A stretch of DNA of 64,000 nucleotides from the human T2T-CHM13v2.0 reference genome, Homo sapiens. The notes under the pieces are model-generated. The model made no database searches. It had not been told where the DNA came from and worked only from the letters and a program-made list of their open reading frames with translations. Position 1 is the stretch's first letter. Each line of letters begins with the position of its first letter. Below are positions 1,236 to 63,545 of the stretch, one piece after another. The stretch is taken from NCBI RefSeq assembly GCF_009914755.1, contig NC_060938.1, one strand, 5' to 3'. The position numbers and the translations under genes are program-made.

Positions 1236-2027
1236 ATGGAGAATGTTATTTTTCTACATGAACTGAAATCAATATAATAACTTCCTTTTGAGAAAGTCAA
1301 ACACACCTTTCTGAGGAAAGCTGTTTTGTTTTTTGGATGTCTGTACTAGAATGAATGTAAGAAAAAACTAAGATTGTTCTTAACTCACATTTCCTTTTAA
1401 AGAAGGGGAGCCTTGGAATTGATATTCTGAAGTTGTTTCAAATCTATTTGCTTAGCAATGAATTTTTGGTTAATACGTTTTGACATTTTCGTTAATTTGA
1501 TTGGCACCTTGAACAGACGTTAAGCGAGGGTCCCGGGAAGAGGGATAGATGAAAGCACTGTTCAGTGAACATGCTGATAGGTCCTTTAGGTAGGCAAAAG
1601 GAATTCACGAAGTGCACAGCGTTCAAAGATTTAGGGGGGAAAAACTACTACATTCAAAGGGAACAAGATTTCATGAGTTTGTCCTAGAGTTCAGCAGTAA
1701 AATAGGCCCTAGTTTCAGTGCCATTCCTGAAAGTACTTTCAAAGGAGGCCTGAAGTAGAAAGGAAAGGTATAAATGAAATATTAAGTACACCTTGAAGAA
1801 ACCTGAGGAAGAGGAGACATTACAGGTGAAAATAGCCTGTGGGTGGGAAAGAAGGTGGGACAAGGTGTTGTCAGTTTGAGGAAAAGTAAAGCCCATAGCC
1901 AGATGGAACAGATGCTTAAATTGTTGCTGTTCTTTTTCTGTTTCCTTTTTAATCTGTACCCCTCAGCATCTAATGATAGCATTTTAAAAAATTACGTGCA
2001 TTACCTAACTTCACTTAAAAAACTCAA

Positions 2028-2160
2028 GCTGGGTGCGGTGGGGCGCGCCTGTAGTCCTAGCTACTCAAGAGGATAAGGTAGGAGGATTGCTTGAACCCAG
2101 GAGTTGGCCTGGGCAACATTGAGACTCTTTCTCTTAAAAAAAAAAAAAAAGAAAATAAAA
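2028..2160 (+). mobile_element. Alu monomer (FLAM-like)
   Basis: gctgggtgcggtgg...cctgtagtcctagctact...gagactct followed by an A tail. Confidence 0.8.
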
Positions 2161-2309
2161 ATCAGTGACATATAGATGAGGAAACGGAGACTGGATAGGT
2201 TCATGAAGTTTGTTAGAATCAGAAGAGAGGTATTTTTTCAGTCTAGCTTTTCTGACTCAGACTAGTTCGTAGCCACTAAGCATTTCGGCAAAGGTACATG
2301 GTACATATA

Positions 2310-2505
2310 CATGGTAGCCTGTGTGCCAAATCCAGCCTGCAGACTGTTCCATTAGCAGAAGTTTATTATTGTTGTTCTTTACCAGTATTTCCTAGAGGCA
2401 AAGGTTGGGTCGGGCTGAGTAGCAGCTGTTAGGCACAGTCCTCCTTGCCCTTGAAGCCTGTTTCACTTATTTGGGTTACCTGCCTGCCCAGTACTTTGTG
2501 AACCT
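2310..2505. mobile_element. MER102-like hAT DNA transposon remnant
   Basis: cctgtttcacttattt..gttacctgcctg matches the recalled MER102 end; another copy lies in the opposite orientation at ~9650-9900. Confidence 0.5.
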
Positions 2506-3281
2506 GCTATGTTTCCTTTGACATAACCATATTTTCTTATAACTATATTAGAATTGAATTGACATTAGTAGGGCTGACATGTGTGAGATTTGGGTTGGTT
2601 TGTGTATTTTTAAACATATTGAAGTAACATTTATGAATAATCATAATTAATTCTGATAAGCAACCAGTAAAACTTTTTATTTCTATAAAATGCCTTTAAC
2701 TTTACCAATTCCAGTATTTTTTCAAACTACCTTGAATGATTATTGCAATATGCGGATATATACTATTTCCTTTTTCACTAGAAGGAAATGTTTACAGGAG
2801 TGGTGTTAATAACTGGGTCATTAATACAGATAATTAGTATGTCATGTCATTTGTGGCTTTCTTAAATTGACGGTCAGATGGTCTTTTCCAGCTGTAGGTC
2901 TTAAAATGCTAAAATCAGCATTCATAATATCTGTTTATTATTAGAGTAGATGCAATGCATTTTGAGCTATTAGAATAAAAAATGAAAGTTATATATAACT
3001 TAAAGACATCCTAGAATTCAACTAGGATTTCTATCTCCTAGGAACTAAACATATTTTCTAGGTAAATTATGCCATTATTATGGACCAATGTTGTAATGAA
3101 ACTAGTGAGATGGTAAATTTGTAAAAATAAATTTCATTCACGGGGGACTGGAAAGCACCATTTCTTTCCTTAGAAAATAATTCCCCAAACTCCTACACTG
3201 GATAAATGACTTGCCTTTTTAAGGAAGTCTGGCTTTCTTAGAGGCTAGTGTTACTGTTTTACAGTTCACTTTCGTTTACAT

Positions 3282-3503
3282 CAGGGGTGTCCAATCTTTT
3301 GGCTTCCCTGGGCCACATCAGAAGAAGAATTATCTCAAGCCACACATAAAATACACTAACACTAAGATAGGTGATGAGCTAAAAAAAAAAAATGCAAAAA
3401 AAAACTCATAATGTTTTAAGAAAGTTTATGAATTTGTGTAAGGCTTCATTCAAAGTGCTCCTGGGTTGCATGCGGCCCACGAGCCATGAGTTGGACAAGC
3501 TTG
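3282..3503 (+). mobile_element. MER30 (hAT-Charlie MITE)
   Basis: Runs CAGGGGTGTCCAATCTTTTGGC...GGACAAGCTTG; 8-bp TSD gtttacat/atttacat. Confidence 0.85.
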
Positions 3504-3953
3504 ATTTACATGAAAAGATATGCTTTTTATTCATGTTTTTAATCTTGCTGCTGCTTTCTCATTCAATACTTTTTCTAAAAATTTCTCAGAACAGGAATAA
3601 AAGTCAGATGATCAATTATGGCAAGATTAGTATTTAAAAACGAGTTAAAATTAGGTAGTCTGAAATTGCAGTAGTGGTGGGGTCTACCTGCCAGATGTGC
3701 CCACCAAGAGGTTTATGTGACATTGATTTCTCTGTCAGTTTCTCCTCACCCCAAAACTACCTTTCTTGATACTTTTGTGGCCTTCTTCCTTGCCCTTTGA
3801 CCTGGCAACTGTACTTTCATGCCTTAAAAATTTATAAAACAAAGGAAAAAAAATCCGATTCTCAAATGCAATTATAAGTAACTATGATAATCAGGATGTA
3901 AATTTTTTCAGTATACAGGAAAGAGAAACACTTTTAACTTTTAAAGGAGGCCA

Positions 3954-4273
3954 GCCAGGTGCTAAGTGGCTCACGCCTGTAATCCCAGCACTTTGGGAGG
4001 CTGAGGTGGGCGGATTACCTGAGGTCAGGAGTTCGAGACCAGCCTGGCCAACATGGCGAAACCCCATCTCTACTAAAAATACAAAAATTAGCTGGGCGTG
4101 GTGGCATGCGCCTGTAATCCCAGCTACTCAGGAGGCTGAGACAGGAGAATTGCTTGAACCCAGGAGGCGGAGGTTGCAGTGAGCCGAGTCCCACCATTGC
4201 ACTCCAGCCTGGGGAACAAGAGCAAAACTTTGTCTCAGAAAAAAATAAAAATAAATAAATAAAAATAAATAAA
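3954..4273 (+). mobile_element. AluS
   Basis: Full dimer; (AAAT)n tail; TSD taaaggaggcca. Confidence 0.92.
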
Positions 4274-4903
4274 TAAAGGAGGCCAAAGCATGCTTTACAC
4301 AAAGGAAGCCCTGTTTGGTAAGGGAGTGAGACCCGTTGGTTTATAGTTAACACTGTCTTATGTTTTTTCGATTGAATTGCTAATGAGTAGTTTTCTTTGG
4401 CTCTAAATAACAATGTTACATAAGTAGGTTGAGAGCCTATATTACCTAGTATAAACTCAGTGCTGCTGCAGTTGATAAATGGAGCTATGATACAAAAACA
4501 GATGGCTCAAGTGGGATTTCAGATTGATTATCTGAGGGTTGTTACTCACCTGAGTATGTCTCCTCTTTGTCACAGAGCTGGTAACAGAGAGCAAGCTGTT
4601 TTTGGCTCAGAGCTCTACAGCAATATTCCTCAAACTGCCTGGTAAAGGATCAGTTTTTGTTTTTAATTTTTATTTCAATCCATACCAATACACTTATAAA
4701 AATGAAATAGTAGGAAAATGAAGTGAAAAAAAGACATAGAAAATACAAGCCCAAATGTATTGTTAAATTCAACAGATAAAAAATTACTACTATAATTGTA
4801 ATAATCATATTGCTCTAAAAATTTCTGAAGGCTTTATCTCAGTTGCCATACTTTTTTTATTGCAGACCAGTTTGAGTTATAATGCCACATTTTTCATGTA
4901 TTA

Positions 4904-5385
<482 letters not shown>

Positions 5386-6008
5386 ACCAACAGCATAAAT
5401 CCATAAGTTGGCAGATGAAAGTAGTGCTATTCTTAGGATGATTTTAAAGATGAATATGATTAATAATGCACTGATTTCAAAAGGGACTGTCTGAGACAGT
5501 ATCATTCAAAGTCAATGTTACTACTTGAACAAGCTATTAAAATCCAAATCTCTTCTGTTAAATGACCTTCTAGGATTGTTGTGAGGTTGAAATAATATAA
5601 GCACAGGCTTAACACTATGTCTAGAACATAATAAAAACTTTCAAAAATATTGAGGCAGATTCTCAATACTGATTAGAAAAACTTGTAAAGATTTTCATTT
5701 TTATAACTTTGTTCTAATTTATAATTGTTAAACCTTTTATTTGGAAACAGACTTAATAATGGGAAGCTCCTCCCCCTCCTCCCCTTCGCAGTCATGGAAA
5801 CTTCTCGGCAATTTGTTTGGAATCCAAAGGTCTTGTTGTGGGGTTTGGTTTGCATTACTATTTACCATTCTATTTGGAGAGGCCAGGGCTTTTCCTCTAC
5901 CCTCCCTGCTTTATACTATTTTTCTTAGTATTTAACTCTCTTTTCTTCATTATACTTACTCTCATTTTAAGCTTTGTTTTGTTCTTTCGTGTTTTAAAGT
6001 TTTGTGTC

Positions 6009-6362
6009 TGTATTAGTCCATTCTTACACTGCTAATAAAGACATTTCTGAGACTGGGTAATTTATAAACGAAAGAGGTTTGATTGACTCACAATTCAGCA
6101 TAGCTGGGGAGGCCTAAGGAAACTTACAATCATGGCAGAAGAGGAGGCAAACACATCCTTCTTCATGGGGCGGCAGGATGGAGAAGTGCTGAGCAAAAGG
6201 GGGAAAGCCCCTTATAAAACCATCAGATCTCGTGAGAACTCACTGTCACAAGAACAGCAAGAACTCACTATCACAAGAACAGCATGACCTCCCACCAGGT
6301 CCCTCGCATGGGAACTACAACTCAAGATGAGATTTGGGTGGGGACACAACCAAACCATATCA
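6009..6362 (-). mobile_element. THE1 (MaLR) solo LTR
   Basis: Runs TGTATTAGTCC...AAACCATATCA; perfect 5-bp TSD gtgtc; internal 25-bp tandem duplication at 6235-6284. Confidence 0.9.
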
Positions 6363-6625
6363 GTGTCTGATTATAATAACTGACTCATTCATAATAAGTA
6401 TCTTTAGGGGTTTGAGTTACCCGCAAATCAAAGGTTTATTGTGTCTGAAGAACAGATTTATTCAGTATGCTTCTGCCTCTACAATAGGTTCTCTTTGAAG
6501 TAGATTTAACAATGTTACATTTTTAAGGACTTTTATATTGTCTGGTACATTGCTCTTACCCTCTTATGGTAATACAAGAGATTTTATACCTGTTTGGAAT
6601 TTCATTTGTAAATTCTAAGATTTGA

Positions 6626-6740
6626 GCCGGGCATGGTGGCTTATACCTGTAATCCCAGTGCTTTAGGAGGCTGAAGCTGGAAGTTTGCTTGAGGCCAGGA
6701 GTTTGAGACCAACCTGGGCAACAAGTGAGACCCTGTCTCA
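6626..6740 (+). mobile_element. FLAM_C-like Alu monomer
   Basis: gccgggcatggtggcttatacctgtaatccc...gagaccctgtctca. Confidence 0.8.
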
Positions 6741-6994
6741 GATGAATGAACGTAAATTATAAAATTTTAAACTTTGCAATCTCAGTAAATTTATCCATAT
6801 CTGGAAAGAAATCATCAGCTTGTCTTTTCTCAGATTGAACTACAGATTATTGTTTCATAAGGATCCTTGATAAAACTAAGTTTGGATCAAATAAAATCCG
6901 GTTGCAATATGATTCAATATTATTTTCCTGAAAAACTTTGTTTTCTCCAGGATACTATATTGATAAACATAATTAAGACTTATCTGCATAATAA

Positions 6995-16685: not shown

Positions 16686-17341
16686 GTCATGGAGTCTGTT
16701 CTGCCTCCCAAGCCAGTACCCCAACCACTGGAATACTCTCAGTTTACAAGTACCTAGTAGCCATTCTGAATGTATAAGGGTTGACCTGGCTGTGTGCTGG
16801 GGATCGGGGGGATTCTTCTCTTGCTATGTGGCAAGTATTAATTGGTGTTGACGTTGCAGCTTTAGTTTCCCCTTTTTCAATAGATACCTAGATCCCTTTC
16901 TTCCTCTCCAAACAAGGAGGGAGTGATGTTTCAACCAGCCTTTCAGCTAAAAAAAACTATTTTCCCATAGAGATAATATTTACAAAAGCTAGTTAGGCTC
17001 CCAGCCCCTCAGTCAGAAGTTCAGTAATGTATCAGAGATAATAGAGCTACTGTTTTTGCTAACTAACCTCTTTATTATTATTATTATTATACTTTTAAGT
17101 TATAGGGTACATGTGCACAATGTGCAGGTTTGTTACATATGTATACATGTGCCATGTTGGTTTGCTGCACCCATTAACTCGCCATTTACATTAGGTATTT
17201 CTCCTAATGCCATCCCTCCCCCAGCCCCCACCCCACGACAGGCCCTGGTGTGTGATGTTCCCCACCCTGTGTCCAAGTGTTACCCCATGACAGGCCCTGG
17301 TGTGAGATGTTCCCCACCCTGTGTCCAAGTGTTCTCATTGA

Positions 17342-21191
<3,850 letters not shown>

Positions 21192-21254
21192 TATGATGTT
21201 AGCTGGTTGCTTTGCCCGTTAGTTGGTGCAGTTTCTTCCTAGCATTGATGGTCT

Positions 21255-22273
21255 TTGCAATTTGTTATGTTTTTGCAGTGGCTGGTACTGGTTGTTCCTT
21301 TCCATGTTTAGTGCTTCCTTCAGGAGCTCTTGTAAGGCAAGCCTGGTGGTGACAAAATCTCTCAGCATTTGCTTGTCTATAAAGGATTTTATTTCTCCTT
21401 CACTTATTAAGCTTAGTTTGGCTGGATATTAAATTCTGGGTTGAAAATTCTTTTCTTTGAGAATGTTGAATATTGGCCCCCACTCTCTTCTGGCTTGTAG
21501 AGTTTCTGCTGAGAGATACGCTGTTAGTCTGATGGGCTTCCTTTTGTGGGTAACCTGACCTTTCTCTCTGGCTGCCCTTAACATTTTTTCTTTCATTTCA
21601 ACCTTGGTGAATCTGACAATTATGTGTCCTGGGGTTGCTCTTCTCGAGGAGTATCTTTGTGGTATTCTCTGTATTTCCTGAATTTGAATTTTGGCCTGCC
21701 TTGCTATGTTGGGGAAGTTCTCCTGGATAATATCCTGAAAAGTGTTTTCCAGCTTGGTTCCATTCTCTCCATCACTTTCAGGTACACCAATCAAACGTAG
21801 ATTTGGTCTTTTCACATAGTCCCATATTTATTGGAGGGTTTGTTCATTTCTTTTTACTCTTTTTTTCTCTAAACTTCTCACTTCATTTCATTAATTTGAT
21901 CTTCAATCACTGATACTTTCTTCCACTTGATCGAATCAGCTACTGAAGCTTGTGCATGTGTCACGTAGTTCTCATGCCATGGTTTTCAGCTACATCAGGT
22001 CATTTAAGGTCTTCTCTACATTGTTTATTCTCGTTAGCCATGCGTCTAATCTTTTTTCAAGGTTTTAAGCTTCCTTGCGATGGGTTTGAACATCCTCCTT
22101 TAGCTTGGAGAAGTTTGTTTTTACTGACCTTCTGAAGCCTACTTCTGTCAACTTGTCAAAGGAATTTCCATCCAGCTTTGATCCATTGCTGGCGAGGAGC
22201 TGCAGTCCTTTGGAGGAGAAGAGGTGCTCTGGTTTTTAGAATTTTCAGCTTTTCTGCTCTGGTTTCTCCCTGT
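21255..22273 (-). pseudogene. L1 ORF1 remnant
   Basis: Fragment KRPNLRLIGVPE...LQARREW..KNFQPRI; premature stop at 21429; start codon appears mutated. Confidence 0.85.
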
Positions 22274-23409
22274 ATTTGTGGTTTTATCTACCTTTGGTCT
22301 TTGATGATGGTCACCTACAGATGGGGTTTTGGTGTGGATGTCCTTTTTGTTGATGTTGATGCTATTCCTTTCTGTTTGTTAACAGTTTTCCTTCTAACAG
22401 TCAGGTCCCTCAGCTGCAGGTCTGTTGGAGTTTGCTGGAGGTCCACTCCAGATGCTGTTTGCCTTGGTATCACCAGCAGAGGCTGCAGAACAGCAAACAT
22501 TGCTGCCTGATCCTTCCTCTGGAAGCTTCGTCTCAGAGGGGCACCTGGCTGTATGAGTTGTCAGTCGGCACCTACTGGGAGGTATCTCCCACTTAGGCTA
22601 CACAGGAGTCAGAGACCCACTTGAGGAGGCAGTCTGTCTATTCTCAGAGCTCAGACACCATTCTGGGAAAACCACTGCTCTCTTCAGAGCTATCAGTCAG
22701 GAACGTTTAAGACTGCAGAAGTTTCTGCTGCCTTTTATTCAGCTATGCCCTGCCCCCAGAGGTGGAGTCTACGGAGGCAGGCAGGCCTCCTTGAGCTGCA
22801 GTGGGCTCTACCCAGTTCGAGCTTCCCGGCCATTTTGTTTACCTACTCCAGCCTCAGCAATGGCAGACGCCCCTCCCCCAGTCAGGCTGCCTCCTTGAAG
22901 TTGGATCTTGGACTGCTGCGCTAGCAGTGAATAAGGCTCCATGGGTGTGGGACTCGCTAAGCAAGGAGCGGGATATAATCTCCTGGTGTGCCGTTTGTTA
23001 AGACTGTTGGAAAAGCGCAGTATTTGGGTGGCAATGTCCCGATTTTCCAGGTACAGTCTGTCATGGCTTCCCTTGGCTAGGAAAGGGAAATCCCCTGACC
23101 CCTTGCGCTTCCCTGGGTGAGGTGTCACCCCGCCCTGCTTCAGCTCACCCTCCCTGGGCTGCACTCACTGTCCAACCCGTCCCAGTGAGATGAACCAGGT
23201 ACCTCAGTTGGAAATGCAGAAATCACCTGTCTTCTGCGTCGATCACACTGGGAGCTGCAGACCGGAATTGTTCCTATTCGGCCATCTTGGAATGGACCGC
23301 TTGTTTGCTAACTAACCTCTTAAAAGAAACAAACAGATGAAGTTCATGATGTACCATTAAATTATTGAAACTTTTTCATAAACAACATATATAATTATTC
23401 CCTTGTGGT

Positions 23410-56180: not shown

Positions 56181-56801
<621 letters not shown>

Positions 56802-56882
56802 TAGTCAAATGGCATATACTTCTTGATGTAGAAGCAACCCATACTTCTAGAATGATAATAAGAGATGATTTTTTATTTCCAG

Positions 56883-57017
56883 GCACCAGCTGCTTTTGGA
56901 CTGGTTTCCTTCTTGATGCATGCTGGCTTAGAGCGGAATCGAATCAGAAAGCACTTGCTGGTCTTTGCATTGGCAGCACCAGTTATGTCCATGGTGACAT
57001 ACTTAGGACTGAGTAAG
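56883..57017 (+). CDS. SLC39A9: SLC39A9 coding exon 6 ([45 protein letters not shown])
   Basis: Acceptor ttttatttccag|GCA; donor AAG|gtaagc; 135 nt; phase 0-0. Confidence 0.96.
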
Positions 57018-57428
57018 GTAAGCTAATCTATTCCCAGCTATCTAAACCAGTGTCTTGTGATCTCTTAGAATTTATGATCTCTTAGATTGAATTTTTCCAA
57101 TACATTACTCTCTCAAACTAAAGATAAAATTAGGAGTAAAAACTATACAGGGTAAATATCTTAATTCCAATGCGTCCTCTTCATATTAGCATTTTCTTAT
57201 TCATTTAATTTGAAAACTTCTTCCCTATCAATCAGTTCCAAGAATATTTGCATAAATATGATAGCGCTTCAATATTTAAAATAGTATAACGTAACCAGCC
57301 ATGCTAGCTTCATTTGACAGATATCTAATAAGTCAAATCTGTCCATATTTAATGTGAGGTAGACACCTGAAGCGTGAGTAACAAGCCACATAGCCGCTTT
57401 GAGAAGAGCAGCAGCTGGGCAGAGATTG

Positions 57429-58171
57429 CTGTCAAGAGTTTAAAAAACTGACATTGATTACTGAAGTGATAGAGTAATCTTTTAAAGGGAACAACATACT
57501 GCTCACTGAAAGAAGAGAAGGCTTTTCAGGTAAATGGAAAGGGTTTTTATAACACACTGTTAGCAACTAAGATCAACAAACCCTTCCTTAACGGGAACTT
57601 AGCCATTCTTGGTCTCATTTTTCACGTTCCTCCTCTTCTCCCAGCTCTCACGTCCCCAGATAGTAACTGTACAGTTCTTTCTATTGAATACTTTGTACTG
57701 AACATAGCTTCAGACCTGAGGTAACATGTGCTCTTCTGACTCCAAGCTGGACCTTCCCATGCCTTATAATCCTGTCTGTAGCTCTGAGCAACAACCCTCC
57801 GCATTTTACCCAGATGTCAACTGGCAGGCAACTGGAGGAAAATCTTAGAAGCAAACTGACTCAGGGCTAGTTGATGGGAACTGCTTTCCCCAACACCCTC
57901 TCTAAAGGTCATTGATTCTTCTGAGCATCAGTCAATTCAGTATTTGGCAGTAAAACCCATATTAATAGGAACATGTGAAAAATGAGATAAAGAATGGCTA
58001 AGTTCCTGTTAAGCAAGGGTTTGTTGATCTTAGATGCTAAGAGTGTGTTATAAAAACCCTTTCCATTTACCTGAAGAGCCTTCTCTTCTTTCAGTGAGCA
58101 GTATGTTGTTCCCTTTAACAGATTACTCTATCACTTCAGTAATCAGTGTCAGTTTTTTAACCTTTTGACAG
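57429..58171. repeat. Long inverted repeat (arms 57429-57631 and 57967-58171, 335-nt spacer) in intron 6
   Basis: Manual alignment gives 186/197 complementary positions without gaps, plus 6 bp after a 2-nt bulge; not recognisable as Alu or L1. Confidence 0.95.
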
Positions 58172-58305
58172 GAAGGTGCTGATAATTCTGGAGACATGGA
58201 GTTACTTGCTGCATCTATGGGATGTCCTTTTCTTAAAATTTTAATTAGTTGTCTTAGTCCATAGGTCTACTTTTTTAACAGAAAAGGTTGAAATTAGTTT
58301 TATAA

Positions 58306-58653
<348 letters not shown>

Positions 58654-58893
58654 GCTTAAGAGATATTTCTAGGCTCTATGAGGTCAACTACTGCATCTTG
58701 ATTACCACTGTATCTCAAGCACCTGGCCCAGAGCCTGCTGCATAGATGATGCTTGTTAAATATTAGTAGAATAAATAAATTTATGTCTGAAATTTAATAT
58801 CTGCAATAATATATTGTTGATTCTATCTCAAGAATAATACAAGCCAAACCTGTTGAACCAGCACTTAAAGTTCGTTTTAAAAAGCAATTGTGA

Positions 58894-59052
58894 ACCAGGA
58901 GCAGTGGCGCATACCTGTAGTCCCAGCTACTTGGGAAGCTGAGACAGGAGGATTGCTTGAGCCCAGGAGTTCCAGGCTGTAGTGTGTTATGATTGTGCCT
59001 GTGAATAGCCACTCAACTCCAGCCTGGGCAACATAGCGAGACCTCATCTCTA
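58894..59052 (+). mobile_element. FAM (fossil Alu monomer)
   Basis: Retains gtgcctgtgaatagccact..actccagcctgggcaacatagcgagac. Confidence 0.78.
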
Positions 59053-59089
59053 AAGACAGATACAGTCAATGAATGGATGGACAGAATGA

Positions 59090-59310
59090 TGGAACTGTGG
59101 TGAATATAGTTTAATAATAGTGTGTGGTACATATCAAAATTGCTAAGAGTAAATTTCAGATGTTCTCACCACAAAATATGATAAATATTTGAGATGACAG
59201 ATGTTAGTTTTATTTAATTAGTCCACATTTTATTCATGAATCATAATGTCACTTTATACCCTATAAATATATATAATTATAAATTGTTGATTTACAATAA
59301 ATTTTTTAAA
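59090..59310 (+). mobile_element. L1MA-type 3' end fragment
   Basis: aaaattgctaagag...atgttctcaccacaaaa...tataaatatatataattat...caataaa. Confidence 0.7.
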
Positions 59311-59515
59311 AAATCAATTGCGTACATCACTGATATTCTTAAACCCTTATTTGGAAGCTTCCCATGAATAACTTAAAGTTGCTGTGTTCTCTAGATGTCC
59401 CCAGTGTCCTAGACAGCACCAGTTAAGAACAGTGAGTGTTTTTTAACTGGGACTTCTTCCTGACCCTGAATTTTACTTGACTTAGTTTTTCCTCTTTCTC
59501 TCTTCTAATTCACAG

Positions 59516-59746
59516 AGCAGTAAAGAAGCCCTTTCAGAGGTGAACGCCACGGGAGTGGCCATGCTTTTCTCTGCCGGGACATTTCTTTATGTTGCCACAG
59601 TACATGTCCTCCCTGAGGTGGGCGGAATAGGGCACAGCCACAAGCCCGATGCCACGGGAGGGAGAGGCCTCAGCCGCCTGGAAGTGGCAGCCCTGGTTCT
59701 GGGTTGCCTCATCCCTCTCATCCTGTCAGTAGGACACCAGCATTAA
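59516..59746 (+). CDS. SLC39A9: SLC39A9 coding exon 7 ([34 protein letters not shown]...ILSVGHQH*)
   Basis: Acceptor ctaattcacag|AGC; TAA at 59744-59746; [11 protein letters not shown]7 motif. Total CDS 96+109+198+69+86+135+231=924 nt = 307 aa + stop. Confidence 0.96.
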
Positions 59747-62700
59747 ATGTTCAAGGTCCAGCCTTGGTCCAGGGCCGTTTGCCATCCAGTGAGAACAGCC
59801 GGCACGTGACAGCTACTCACTTCCTCAGTCTCTTGTCTCACCTTGCGCATCTCTACATGTATTCCTAGAGTCCAGAGGGGAGGTGAGGTTAAAACCTGAG
59901 TAATGGAAAAGCTTTTAGAGTAGAAACACATTTACGTTGCAGTTAGCTATAGACATCCCATTGTGTTATCTTTTAAAAGGCCCTTGACATTTTGCGTTTT
60001 AATATTTCTCTTAACCCTATTCTCAGGGAAGATGGAATTTAGTTTTAAGGAAAAGAGGAGAACTTCATACTCACAATGAAATAGTGATTATGAAAATACA
60101 GTGTTCTGTAATTAAGCTATGTCTCTTTCTTCTTAGTTTAGAGGCTCTGCTACTTTATCCATTGATTTTTAACATGGTTCCCACCATGTAAGACTGGTGC
60201 TTTAGCATCTATGCCACATGCGTTGATGGAAGGTCATAGCACCCACTCACTTAGATGCTAAAGGTGATTCTAGTTAATCTGGGATTAGGGTCAGGAAAAT
60301 GATAGCAAGACACATTGAAAGCTCTCTTTATACTCAAAAGAGATATCCATTGAAAAGGGATGTCTAGAGGGATTTAAACAGCTCCTTTGGCACGTGCCTC
60401 TCTGAATCCAGCCTGCCATTCCATCAAATGGAGCAGGAGAGGTGGGAGGAGCTTCTAAAGAGGTGACTGGTATTTTGTAGCATTCCTTGTCAAGTTCTCC
60501 TTTGCAGAATACCTGTCTCCACATTCCTAGAGAGGAGCCAAGTTCTAGTAGTTTCAGTTCTAGGCTTTCCTTCAAGAACAGTCAGATCACAAAGTGTCTT
60601 TGGAAATTAAGGGATATTAAATTTTAAGTGATTTTTGGATGGTTATTGATATCTTTGTAGTAGCTTTTTTTAAAAGACTACCAAAATGTATGGTTGTCCT
60701 TTTTTTTTGTTTTTTTTTTTTTAATTATTTCTCTTAGCAGATCAGCAATCCCTCTAGGGACCTAAATACTAGGTCAGCTTTGGCGACACTGTGTCTTCTC
60801 ACATAACCACCTGTAGCAAGATGGATCATAAATGAGAAGTGTTTGCCTATTGATTTAAAGCTTATTGGAATCATGTCTCTTGTCTCTTCGTCTTTTCTTT
60901 GCTTTTCTTCTAACTTTTCCCTCTAGCCTCTCCTCGCCACAATTTGCTGCTTACTGCTGGTGTTAATATTTGTGTGGGATGAATTCTTATCAGGACAACC
61001 ACTTCTCGAACTGTAATAATGAAGATAATAATATCTTTATTCTTTATCCCCCTTCAAAGAAATTACCTTTGTGTCAAATGCCGCTTTGTTGAGCCCTTAA
61101 AATACCACCTCCTCATGTGTAAATTGACACAATCACTAATCTGGTAATTTAAACAATTGAGATAGCAAAAGTGTTTAACAGACTAGGATAATTTTTTTTT
61201 CATATTTGCCAAAATTTTTGTAAACCCTGTCTTGTCAAATAAGTGTATAATATTGTATTATTAATTTATTTTTACTTTCTATACCATTTCAAAACACATT
61301 ACACTAAGGGGGAACCAAGACTAGTTTCTTCAGGGCAGTGGACGTAGTAGTTTGTAAAAACGTTTTCTATGACGCATAAGCTAGCATGCCTATGATTTAT
61401 TTCCTTCATGAATTTGTCACTGGATCAGCAGCTGTGGAAATAAAGCTTGTGAGCCCTCTGCTGGCCACAGTGAGGAAAGTAGCACAAATAGGATACAGTT
61501 GTATGTAGTCATTGGCAACAATTGCATACAATTTTACTACCAAGAGAAGGTATAGTATGGAAAGTCCAAATGACTTCCTTGATTGGATGTTAACAGCTGA
61601 CTGGTGTGAGACTTGAGGTTTCATCTAGTCCTTCAAAACTATATGGTTGCCTAGATTCTCTCTGGAAACTGACTTTGTCAAATAAATAGCAGATTGTAGT
61701 GTCTGGTTTGGTTTGGACAGTAGTGCTTTCTATCATATTGTTGTGTGCAATGGTAATTTGTTCTACTGGCCAAAGCCTCTTTCAGCAGTGCCTTGCCATC
61801 ATGCTTAAAAGTTTGGCTAGTATATCTTGCTGGATGGAGCCTTGAACTCCGGCAAGGATTGAACCATCTGACTTCCAAATTTGCCTTCCCCTCTGGACCT
61901 CACTATTAACAAGCAAACCTTTCAGGGCCCTCTTAGCTCTCAGAAGCTATGTATGGGCTTTCCCAGATTTTAAAGCTGCTGCCTCGAGAACTACTCATTT
62001 CTCTCCTGGTCAGCAGACAGAAATAGCCATACTAATCTCATAGGGCTCAAATGCATCTTCAGGCAGCAGGGAACCAAGCAGCGTGGCACAGGCCTTCTTG
62101 ACTGGAGGAAGAGCTTGCTGGCATGGTGGGCAGTATTCCAGGAGAGGCCATGTCCGTGTTCACTTCTTGGCACATTTCAGTTCCGTTTTCCTCTTGTTTA
62201 AAACTGCCTCTTTAGATGTGGATGCCTTAATGCTGTAACACATTTGAAAACATTGGCAATACTTAAGTTGCTGCCATGATTACAGATGGAATTATTGGCT
62301 ACCAAAGAGACGCAATTGATGATGAGAAGCATGATTCTTGCTTCCATATAACCAAAGTTAATCTTAATTGCAATTTGACTCCGTTTCCTTGGTAGGGATA
62401 GACTTTCTTCAGATTCCAAGTGCTCTCTTAAATGGCAAATTAAGTTAAAGAATACTACTGCTCCATTCCCCTCACTTATTCTCCAGTTAATTGCTTGTCA
62501 GTTCCATTTCAAGAAAGCAGTGATGTTCCAGGTTTGATTCAGTTTTCCTGTGCACACTATTGCCAAATTTTTTTTTAGCAAAGATTCTGCACTGGAACGT
62601 AGACAGTTGGAAACAGTACTACCTACCTAGAGGTTATGTGTTTTCTCTTTCTCCCCGCTTTCACCTCTTTCTTTCCCAATTCAAAACAGCCAAGTGAGCC

Positions 62701-63545
62701 CTGTTCTGGTATTTTGAATCATTAGAGAAAAGAAAGGGAGTGGCTGTTTTGAGTTGTCCTTTCTTTGCAGAAAGGAGAAAATGTGATTGTGTTTTTTTTT
62801 TACCAGCCTACTTCTAAGTGTCACTGCCTGGTTTTTCTCTTTTTCAAGGATTAGAACTAAGAGGACACACCAGCATCGGAGTGTATTAAGCCCCTGAAAC
62901 ACATGGTAGCTAGGGACTGAACACAGGAACCGTATGACAGCAGCACAAACCCCCAAAGGATGTTCCTGCCTTGTGGGCCCCTGAGCCCCTTGGGAGACTG
63001 AGAATCATGACCAGATTCATCCAGAACTGCTGCAGTGTTAAGTGAAAATCCTCTGTAGTTGTTCTGCAGAGGAACCTTCCTTCCATTAGAAAATTTCTGC
63101 TCAATACAGAATGGTCCACATCACCCAAAGTGCACTGTTGGAGATGCTGTGAAATTAAAACCTCTTTGTACCTGAGACATCTAGATTCACCTCAGGAGGC
63201 CTGAAGGAAATGTGTAACTTGTGGGAAAGAACTAGACAACCATTTAGGAATTCTCTAGATATACTCAGCCTAACCCAGTGGCTTAACACAAGGAGATTGG
63301 CTTTGATCTTTTTTTCTTGTGGCATCTTCCAGCAAGTTAGAAGTCTCATGGGATAAGACTGCAGTTCCCCTGGTTCAATAGCTGGAACAGTGATTTTAAA
63401 TGTCCCTTTTTCTGGATCCCTTGTAAACATGAAATCATTCCATGGATGGCTGCCTTATAATTTTGTCTCTTTCCACTTTAATTGTGAATGGTTAAAAAAA
63501 TGCTGTTTTCTGATATTAAATTTTTATTAGTGCATACCTTAATCT
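59747..63545 (+). other. SLC39A9: SLC39A9 3' UTR (~3.8 kb, no Alu/L1 recognised)
   Basis: Follows the stop codon; U-rich tracts (e.g. ~60700-60722); ends shortly after ATTAAA at 63515. The 3' end is approximate. Confidence 0.75.
63515..63520 (+). terminator. Polyadenylation signal ATTAAA (likely distal PAS)
   Basis: Variant PAS followed by U/GU-rich downstream sequence (ccttttggcagtttgtttgatg). Confidence 0.65.

What the first reader, a model, noticed from the sequence alone, without database searches (positions are those of the whole stretch)
57429..58171. ~200-bp near-perfect non-Alu hairpin in the last intron of SLC39A9, with strand-biased G-U wobbles
Seen: 57429-57625 is the reverse complement of 57975-58171 with only 11 differences in 197 ungapped positions (~94%). 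It extends 6 more bp past a 2-nt bulge and encloses a 335-nt loop. All 5 transition differences give G-U wobbles on the + (pre-mRNA) strand and none gives A-C (1/32 if direction were random). The other 6 are isolated transversions, so about 191/197 positions pair in RNA. The arms match no repeat I recognise and have no TSD or transposon-type termini. Known: dsRNA this long and perfect is a substrate for ADAR1/2 and Drosha/Dicer and can trigger PKR/MDA5 if exported; most human examples are Alu pairs. Inference: this is a possibly selected RNA structural element (editing substrate, splicing or intron-retention switch, or endo-siRNA source) controlling production of the terminal ZIP9 exon.
Basis: partly seen in the sequence, partly recalled or inferred. 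Interest (0 to 1): 0.82.

Follow-up and report, generated by a model that had tools for sequence, protein, structure and literature searches.

The report
Single-copy inverted duplication in SLC39A9 intron
The last intron of the zinc-transporter gene SLC39A9 holds a roughly 200-base stretch of unique DNA copied backwards next to itself, so the unspliced RNA should fold into a long double-stranded hairpin, but nothing I could test shows that the hairpin has been kept by selection or controls the gene.

Summary
Arms 57426-57631 and 57967-58174 are 94% complementary around a 335-nt loop. The fold is far stronger than shuffles on both strands (z about -24).

The arms are not Alu and are not soft-masked. 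Arms and loop have no significant second copy in the T2T genome. A control shows the same search finds 79-83% copies of an old repeat. There is no target-site duplication, Rfam match or Pfam match.

Best reading: a locus-specific inverted duplication made in one step by template switching or fold-back priming. Arm divergence of 5.6-6% suggests roughly 13-60 Myr, depending on the rate assumed. It should form about 200 bp of intronic dsRNA and be a probable ADAR substrate.

The case for selection is weak:
- The 5-of-5 G·U bias has P=0.03 one-sided, and one of the five is part of a tandem change.
- Pair-breaking differences are not depleted: 6 of 11 against 67% expected (P=0.28).

Orthologues, editing and small-RNA data could not be examined, so a function is unsupported rather than excluded.

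The parts
57426..57631 (+). Left arm of the inverted duplication. The core is 57426-57625, with a 6-nt inner extension at 57626-57631.
   Evidence: Single-copy apart from the other arm.
57632..57966 (+). Loop or spacer: 335 nt of unique sequence with no internal palindrome.
   Evidence: One search finds only a self match in the genome, using a 349-nt query (57626-57974) that also spans the arms' inner extension and the 2-nt bulge. One search finds no further inverted or direct similarity. Searches find only short ORFs with no Pfam match.
57967..58174 (+). Right arm, the reverse complement of the left arm. It carries a 2-nt bulge at 57973-57974.
57482..57558 (+). Left side of the longest uninterrupted helix: 77 bp if G·U is allowed, pairing with 58042-58118. 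The longest run of Watson-Crick pairs only is 42 bp.
57527..57535 (+). Donor-like motif (8 of 9 consensus positions) buried in the 77-bp helix. Its function is unknown and it may be there by chance.
   Evidence: it is the only site scoring at least 8/9 in the last intron. The base rate is 10 such sites in 58,087 intronic nt of the window.
57624..57644 (+). Acceptor-like pyrimidine tract followed by AG, at the junction of stem and loop. Its function is unknown.
   Evidence: pyrimidine fraction 0.89, as high as the best real acceptor of the gene. No RefSeq exon uses it.

Best explanation
This is a locus-specific inverted duplication of unique intronic DNA. About 205 nt were copied in reverse orientation 335 nt away in one mutational event, by a replication template switch or by fold-back priming at a break. 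The two copies have since picked up about 6% point differences, apparently neutrally. Because both arms sit in one intron on the sense strand of a broadly expressed gene, the pre-mRNA should fold into a duplex of about 200 bp. In the nucleus such a duplex is an expected substrate for promiscuous A-to-I editing by ADAR1 or ADAR2, and it is then discarded with the intron. What is shown: the anatomy, the single-copy status, the lack of transposon hallmarks, and the predicted fold. What is inferred: the mechanism of origin, the age, the editing, and the absence of a regulatory role.
For: The arms and loop match only themselves and each other in the whole genome. The same search finds thousands of candidates for four control repeats from the window, including an old repeat whose best non-self copies are 79-83% identical. 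A profile of the two arms gives 211.6 and 210.1 bits on the arms. The other 36 matches score 17.0-25.1 bits with genome E-values of 0.032-10. I examined the best 8 of those. They cover different parts of the model, have no inverted partner above 6.4 bits, and are unrelated to each other except for one pair of copies of a common interspersed repeat. There is no target-site duplication of 4-10 bp at any of 19 x 5 tested boundaries, no Rfam family in the hairpin, no Pfam match for any of 5 ORFs, and no tandem repeat. Arm divergence is 11/197 to 12/200, a Jukes-Cantor distance of 0.058-0.0625. That is similar to the human-macaque genome divergence as I recall it. Pair-breaking differences are not depleted. 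Template switching is reported to create perfect inverted repeats in one event, mostly in sense-strand introns of primate genes (PMC10710096, passages read). Two surveys find that long dsRNA in transcripts is selected against rather than for. Both treat >300 bp and >96% pairing as the dangerous class, and this hairpin falls below both limits (PMC7006430, passages; PMC11838218, section 10).
Against: All 5 transitions give G·U on the transcribed-sense strand and none gives A·C. A·C makes up 32.8% of differences in 339 other inverted pairs of the same window, so seeing none in 11 has P=0.013. Those pairs show no general G·U bias (5222 against 5395), so mutational strand asymmetry does not obviously explain the pattern. 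The + strand duplex is 17.7 kcal/mol more stable than the - strand duplex. The arms (about 205 nt) and spacer (335 nt) are much larger than the published short-range template switches. Those papers cite an example of up to 83 bases, a template within 100 nt, and an expected copied length of about 10 nt (PMC10710096 and PMC7954356, passages). No outgroup sequence was available, so neither the age nor the neutrality has been tested directly.
Confidence: 0.68

Rival explanations
1. The hairpin is a selected RNA structural element. Under this reading it is kept because pairing regulates processing of the last intron. It might hide the donor-like site at 57527-57535, loop out the acceptor-like site at 57624-57644, or serve as an editing or small-RNA platform.
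For: The G·U to A·C count is 5 to 0 on the sense strand, with P=0.031 one-sided. The + strand fold is more stable than the - strand fold (-414.7 against -402.6; arms alone -330.6 against -312.9). The only donor-like site scoring at least 8/9 in the intron lies in the longest helix.
Against: Six or seven transversion mismatches have been tolerated. Pair-breaking differences make up 6 of 11 against 0.669 expected (P=0.28). One of the five G·U pairs is part of a tandem change at 57611-57612. The motif observations were made after the fact. No RefSeq transcript uses the region. There is no Rfam match. Six literature searches found no paper on it. Published surveys find that conserved dsRNAs are short and weakly paired (median 65 bp in PMC11838218, Table 2) and that long dsRNAs are selected against (PMC7006430).
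Confidence: 0.1
2. The inverted repeat is much older than its 6% divergence suggests. On this reading the arms are kept alike by gene conversion between them, without selection on the RNA.
For: Gene conversion between nearby inverted repeats is a known process (general knowledge, not tested here). The arms are more alike than any other inverted pair in the window.
Against: The 12 differences are spread fairly evenly along the arms, with no long converted tract standing out; the longest identical run is 42 nt. The arms are short for efficient conversion. This could not be tested without outgroups.
Confidence: 0.1
3. The arms are the terminal inverted repeats of a non-autonomous DNA transposon, either catalogued or from a very low-copy family.
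For: The architecture fits: two arms of about 205 nt around a 335-nt core, about 750 nt in all. A profile search gives 36 weak matches at E of 0.03-10, more than the E-values predict.
Against: No other copy at about 80% identity or above was found in a search that does find such copies for a control repeat. There is no target-site duplication. The best 8 of the 36 weak profile matches were examined: they are heterogeneous, lack an inverted partner, and do not resemble each other apart from two copies of a common interspersed repeat. The region is not soft-masked. As I recall, DNA transposons stopped moving in the anthropoid lineage about 37-40 Myr ago, which fits poorly with arms only about 3% from their common ancestor.
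Confidence: 0.07
4. The feature is an assembly artefact, or an inverted duplication private to the CHM13 genome.
For: None was found. I list it only because inverted duplications can be chimeric read artefacts.
Against: The arms differ at 12 of 200 positions and by a 2-nt indel. An artefact or a recent private event would not produce that.
Confidence: 0.02

Closest known systems
Inverted Alu pairs in introns (IRAlu dsRNA, the main human ADAR substrates)
   Same: Both are intramolecular duplexes of a few hundred bp formed in pre-mRNA by two nearby inverted copies on the sense strand. Both are expected to be edited and then removed with the intron. Fifteen such pairs lie in this same window.
   Different: The arms here are not Alu: no SRP or Alu-type Rfam hit and no soft-masking. 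They are single-copy in the genome. They pair better, 94% against 73-90%.
Hairpins created by template-switch mutations (PMC10710096; PMC7954356; passages read in both)
   Same: [quoted passage not shown] Such events lie mostly in sense-strand introns, and point mutations accumulate afterwards.
   Different: The scale differs. The arms here are about 205 nt and the spacer 335 nt. The papers cite an example of up to 83 bases, and a short-range model with the template within 100 nt and an expected copied length of about 10 nt. The event itself is inferred here, because no ancestral state was seen.
Non-repetitive predicted dsRNAs in the dsRNAscan catalogue (PMC11838218; abstract, Tables 1-2 and section 10 read)
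   Same: The category is the same: dsRNA whose arms overlap no annotated repeat. That paper predicts about half a million of these, of which 4,597 are edited.
   Different: This one is longer than the medians reported there (144 bp for edited, 75 bp for unedited). It falls below the >300 bp and >96% class singled out as putative MDA5 ligands. Whether this locus is in the catalogue could not be checked, because the tables are supplements.
Miniature or non-autonomous DNA transposons with long terminal inverted repeats
   Same: The layout matches: two long inverted termini around a short core, about 750 nt in all.
   Different: Three defining features were tested and not met: other copies, a target-site duplication and any transposase remnant.
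Hairpin-RNA endo-siRNA loci of fly and mouse oocytes (recalled, not read here)
   Same: Both are long near-perfect hairpins transcribed by RNA polymerase II.
   Different: No small-RNA evidence was available. The hairpin is intronic and nuclear. The stem and loop are far from a Drosha substrate, and there is no miRNA annotation or Rfam hit.

Membership tests
DNA transposon / MITE with terminal inverted repeats | Several dispersed copies in the genome | tested here: not met
   Searches find only self and arm-to-arm matches at E<=10. The control finds 79-83% copies of an old repeat (6,851 candidates). The profile search gives only 17-25-bit matches, and the best 8 examined are heterogeneous. Caveats: matches in closed regions are not shown, and only 150 of 51,810 candidates were scored.
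DNA transposon / MITE with terminal inverted repeats | Target-site duplication flanking the termini | tested here: not met
   One search finds no direct repeat of 4-10 bp (one mismatch allowed from 7 bp) at 19 left boundaries x 5 offsets.
DNA transposon / MITE with terminal inverted repeats | Match to a catalogued consensus (Dfam or Repbase) | not testable with these tools
   No repeat library is on hand. The region is not soft-masked in the RefSeq FASTA, but that masking looks copy-number based and could miss old families.
Inverted Alu pair | Both arms are Alu elements | tested here: not met
   the SRP- and Alu-type hits lie at 58373-59052 only, and none falls in 57426-58174; the arms are not in any masked Alu-like segment.
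Locus-specific inverted duplication (template switch or fold-back) | Two adjacent inverted copies of sequence that is otherwise unique in the genome | tested here: met
Locus-specific inverted duplication (template switch or fold-back) | An ancestral state with a single arm in outgroup species | not testable with these tools
Locus-specific inverted duplication (template switch or fold-back) | Microhomology at a junction | tested here: inconclusive
   The innermost 6 bp (57626-57631 with 57967-57972) are set off from the rest of the stem by a 2-nt bulge. That could be a fold-back priming site, or simply a later indel. The outer junctions show no similarity.
Conserved (selected) RNA structure | Covariation or compensatory changes among orthologues | not testable with these tools
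   No orthologous sequences are available.
Conserved (selected) RNA structure | Excess of pair-preserving over pair-breaking differences between the arms | tested here: inconclusive
   G·U to A·C is 5 to 0 (P=0.031 one-sided), but pair-breaking differences are 6 of 11 against 0.669 expected (P=0.28).
Conserved (selected) RNA structure | Membership of a curated RNA family | tested here: not met
   no Rfam match at E<=1 within the hairpin.
miRNA or hairpin-RNA small-RNA precursor | Annotated miRNA, or discrete 21-23-nt reads | not testable with these tools
   There is no miRNA row in the RefSeq annotation supplied and no Rfam miRNA hit in the hairpin. Small-RNA reads are not available.
ADAR hyper-editing substrate (editing-enriched region) | Long, mostly uninterrupted duplex within a transcribed unit | tested here: met
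   the helix runs are 10, 41, 77, 6, 19, 24 and 14 bp, plus 6 more. The hairpin lies inside the SLC39A9 transcription unit by the annotation supplied.
ADAR hyper-editing substrate (editing-enriched region) | Clusters of A-to-G mismatches in RNA reads on both arms | not testable with these tools
   Reads and editing databases are not available. The searches listed no paper on editing at this locus.

The most novel reading that the evidence does not exclude
The hairpin is kept by selection as a splicing safeguard for the last SLC39A9 intron. In this reading, pairing buries the only strong donor-like site of the intron (57527-57535) in a 77-bp helix. It also places a strong acceptor-like site (57624-57644) at the mouth of the loop. 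Cryptic exon use, including a 42-nt in-frame segment at 57488-57529, would then be suppressed, and ADAR editing or loss of pairing would switch it on. The 5-to-0 excess of G·U over A·C would be the trace of that selection.
Probability: 0.06. Interest if true: 0.6.

Novelty: new member of a known kind. Interest (0 to 1): 0.25.

Why it matters
If it is what it appears to be, it is a clean and unusually large example of how a single replication or repair error can give a housekeeping gene a 200-bp double-stranded RNA made from unique sequence rather than Alu. Because the arms map uniquely, it would be a convenient natural reporter for nuclear ADAR editing and for the fate of intronic dsRNA. It carries little weight for SLC39A9 biology unless orthologue or minigene data show constraint.

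Tried and rejected
Strand asymmetry as the cause of the G·U bias. The intronic + strand does have more G+T than A+C (30,927 against 27,230). However, 339 other inverted pairs of at least 150 nt in the window show no G·U excess: 5222 G·U against 5395 A·C, or 4089 against 4059 outside CpG. I therefore dropped this explanation and treat the bias as a small-sample result. That control counts non-independent pairs that share Alu copies.

Telling the original arm from the copy by strand composition. The G+T minus A+C value is -7 for the left arm and +16 for the right arm. Against 227 unmasked intronic windows (mean 12.5, sd 23.1) this is uninformative.

Telling the original arm from the copy by a repeat running across an arm boundary. 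The loop is unique. The weak similarity of the arm to an interspersed repeat in L011 and L014 (64-71% over 68-165 nt) stops inside the arms.

Distant family members. Of the 36 weak profile matches, I examined only the best 8, the ones that were returned as loci.

Coding or transposase remnant. There are 5 ORFs of 40-60 aa, and none matches a Pfam family at E<=1.

Intronic polyadenylation near the hairpin. AATAAA occurs only at 58770 and 59296, and ATTAAA not at all.

Literature. SLC39A9 was searched together with 'inverted repeat', 'dsRNA', 'ADAR', 'A-to-I', 'hairpin' and 'cryptic exon'. Judged from titles and the start of each abstract, no listed paper deals with this intronic hairpin. I opened only 10.64898/2026.10.24.761493 (passages), which concerns a 16-bp helix in the 3'UTR. 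The supplementary tables of PMC11838218 and PMC7006430 may list this locus. Supplements are closed, and I did not ask for them.

Full report
**1. The observation**

- The repeat finder gives arms 57426-57625 and 57975-58174: 200 nt, 94% complementary, 349 nt apart.
- A position-by-position comparison finds 12 differences in 200.
- The sequence shows six further pairs (57626-57631 with 57967-57972) beyond a 2-nt bulge (57973-57974), and a 335-nt loop (BLAST alignment).
- One detail needs correcting. The transversion at 57611 sits next to the transition at 57612, so these may be a single tandem event.

Folding 57400-58200 as RNA gives -414.7 kcal/mol on the + strand and -402.6 on the - strand. 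Shuffles give about -204 and -213, so z is about -24.7 and -23.5. The arms alone give -330.6 on the + strand and -312.9 on the - strand. The helix runs, allowing G·U, are 10, 41, 77, 6, 19, 24 and 14 bp, and the longest run of Watson-Crick pairs only is 42 bp.

The window holds 16 inverted pairs of at least 120 nt within 3 kb. Fifteen overlap masked, Alu-like segments. This is the only pair with 0% masking, and it pairs best.

**2. What it is**

The arms and the loop are single-copy.
- The whole element, the left arm and the loop each match only this locus at E<=10.
- The search is not blind to repeats. Four masked segments from the window gave 2,023 to 6,851 first-look candidates. One of them is an old repeat whose best non-self copies are only 79-83% identical.
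- A sequence profile of the two arms scored 211.6 and 210.1 bits on the arms. The other 36 matches scored 17.0-25.1 bits with genome E-values of 0.032-10, and 150 of 51,810 candidates were scored.

I examined the best eight of those weak matches.
- They cover different parts of the model at roughly 55-65% identity by eye, for the 4 alignments printed.
- None has an inverted partner above 6.4 bits.
- They are unrelated to one another, apart from L011 and L014. Those two share a 1.7-kb interspersed repeat (84.6% identical), and its similarity to the arm (64-71% over 68-165 nt) does not run past the arm ends.

I read all of these as chance-level matches.

Other hallmarks are absent. There is no target-site duplication of 4-10 bp around either end and no Rfam match in the hairpin; the eight matches in 56800-59600 all lie in the Alus at 58315-59052. 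There is no tandem repeat, no Pfam match for any of five short ORFs, and no further inverted or direct similarity in 57018-58320.

So this is neither an Alu pair nor a recognisable transposon. It is a local inverted duplication of unique intronic sequence.

**3. Age and origin (inferred)**

The arms differ at 5.6-6.0% of positions, a Jukes-Cantor distance of 0.058-0.0625. The 95% interval on the raw proportion is about 2.8-10.5%. Using per-year rates I recall (0.5 to 2.2 x 10^-9), the point estimate is 13-62 Myr. The pairwise figure is close to the human-macaque divergence as I recall it. This points to an origin within primates, unless gene conversion has kept the arms alike.

Template switching during replication is documented to create perfect inverted repeats in one step, mostly in sense-strand introns (PMC10710096, passages). 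The published events are much smaller: an example of up to 83 bases, and a short-range model with the template within 100 nt and an expected copied length of about 10 nt (PMC7954356, passages).

A fold-back priming event would also fit. The six innermost pairs, set off by a 2-nt bulge, could be the priming microhomology. That is conjecture, because the bulge may equally be a later indel.

**4. Is there a trace of selection on pairing?**

- Their transitions split 5222 G·U to 5395 A·C, or 4089 to 4059 outside CpG.
- Their transition-to-transversion ratio is about 2.

The neutral expectation is therefore about one half, even though the intronic + strand carries 13.6% more G+T than A+C.
- Five of five gives P=0.031 one-sided and 0.0625 two-sided.
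- With the tandem change set aside, four of four gives P=0.0625.
- No A·C among 11 differences gives P=0.013.

This was noticed after the fact, in one of many features scanned.

Against selection, transversions break pairing just as A·C does, and they are not depleted. Pair-breaking differences are 6 of 11 where 0.669 is expected (P=0.28), and transversions are if anything in excess (P=0.13 for six or more). Selection that removed A·C mismatches but tolerated six or seven transversion mismatches is not a coherent picture. I treat the bias as unexplained but weak.

**5. How it most likely works**

Both arms lie in the last intron, on the sense strand, and none of the eight RefSeq transcripts has an exon there.

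The nascent RNA should therefore form a duplex of about 200 bp with a 335-nt loop. From established knowledge of ADARs (recalled), a duplex with helices of 41 and 77 bp should be edited promiscuously in the nucleus. The intron is then removed and degraded.

The duplex would reach cytoplasmic sensors only through intron retention. It also lies below the >300 bp and >96% class that two surveys treat as the dangerous one. Those surveys find that such structures are selected against in transcripts, not for (PMC7006430, passages; PMC11838218, section 10 and tables). A Drosha-type substrate is unlikely, given a stem of about 205 bp and a 335-nt loop.

No regulatory role is shown.

**6. Comparison with what is known**

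The hairpin works like an intronic inverted Alu pair, but it is not one. Its origin resembles a template-switch hairpin at a larger scale. It belongs with the non-repetitive predicted dsRNAs of the dsRNAscan catalogue. That paper reports about half a million of these, with median lengths of 75 bp (unedited) and 144 bp (edited) (PMC11838218, Table 1). Whether this locus is listed there could not be checked, because the tables are supplements.

It fails three tests for membership of a transposon family: other copies, a target-site duplication, and a coding remnant.

Six literature searches pairing SLC39A9 with structure or editing terms listed no paper on it. The one relevant preprint concerns a 16-bp helix in the 3'UTR.

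**7. Verdict**

The structural reading, a unique non-Alu hairpin, is supported. The functional reading is not.

The feature is a new example of a known kind of thing. It is of modest interest, mainly as a uniquely mappable natural dsRNA.

Noticed in passing
window 57527-57535 (left arm), with 57488-57529: This is the only match of at least 8/9 to the donor splice consensus in the last intron, and it lies inside the 77-bp helix. The base rate is 10 such sites in 58,087 intronic nt. The 42 nt before it are open in the phase-0 frame left by exon 56883-57017, but the acceptor upstream is weak and no RefSeq exon exists there.
   Followed up: partly
window 57624-57644: An acceptor-like site sits exactly where the stem opens into the loop. 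Its pyrimidine fraction is 0.89 and it ends in AG, as good as the best real acceptor of the gene by my crude score.
   Followed up: partly
window 58373-58652 (-) and 58894-59052 (+): A second potential duplex lies in the same intron: an inverted Alu pair downstream of the hairpin (pairs I5 and I6; SRP-type Rfam hits). A TA-rich simple stretch lies at 58315-58341.
   Followed up: no
window introns, + strand: The sense strand carries more G+T than A+C (30,927 against 27,230, ratio 1.136), with T over A skew 0.081 and G over C skew 0.038. This is the compositional asymmetry expected of a transcribed strand. Inverted Alu pairs nevertheless show no G·U excess.
   Followed up: yes
window 57432-57566 (-) and 58034-58168 (+): Each arm carries the same 44-codon ORF in its own orientation. 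Neither has a Pfam match. This is probably chance.
   Followed up: partly
window 59747-63542 (SLC39A9 3'UTR; exact place not given in the text): A 2026 preprint (10.64898/2026.10.24.761493, passages read) reports a 16-bp helix in the SLC39A9 3'UTR that is bound by LIN28B in eCLIP. It is a different element from the intronic hairpin.
   Followed up: no
window 17065-23298: A block of about 6 kb of masked segments that are not Alu-like, presumably one long interspersed element. I did not examine it.
   Followed up: no
L011:252-1939 and L014:345-2007 (G000 C13 and C17): Two of the weak profile matches are copies of one interspersed repeat: 84.6% identical over 1,709 nt. Its similarity to the hairpin arm is 64-71% over 68-165 nt and is not significant at genome scale (E 0.34 and 0.94).
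   Followed up: partly
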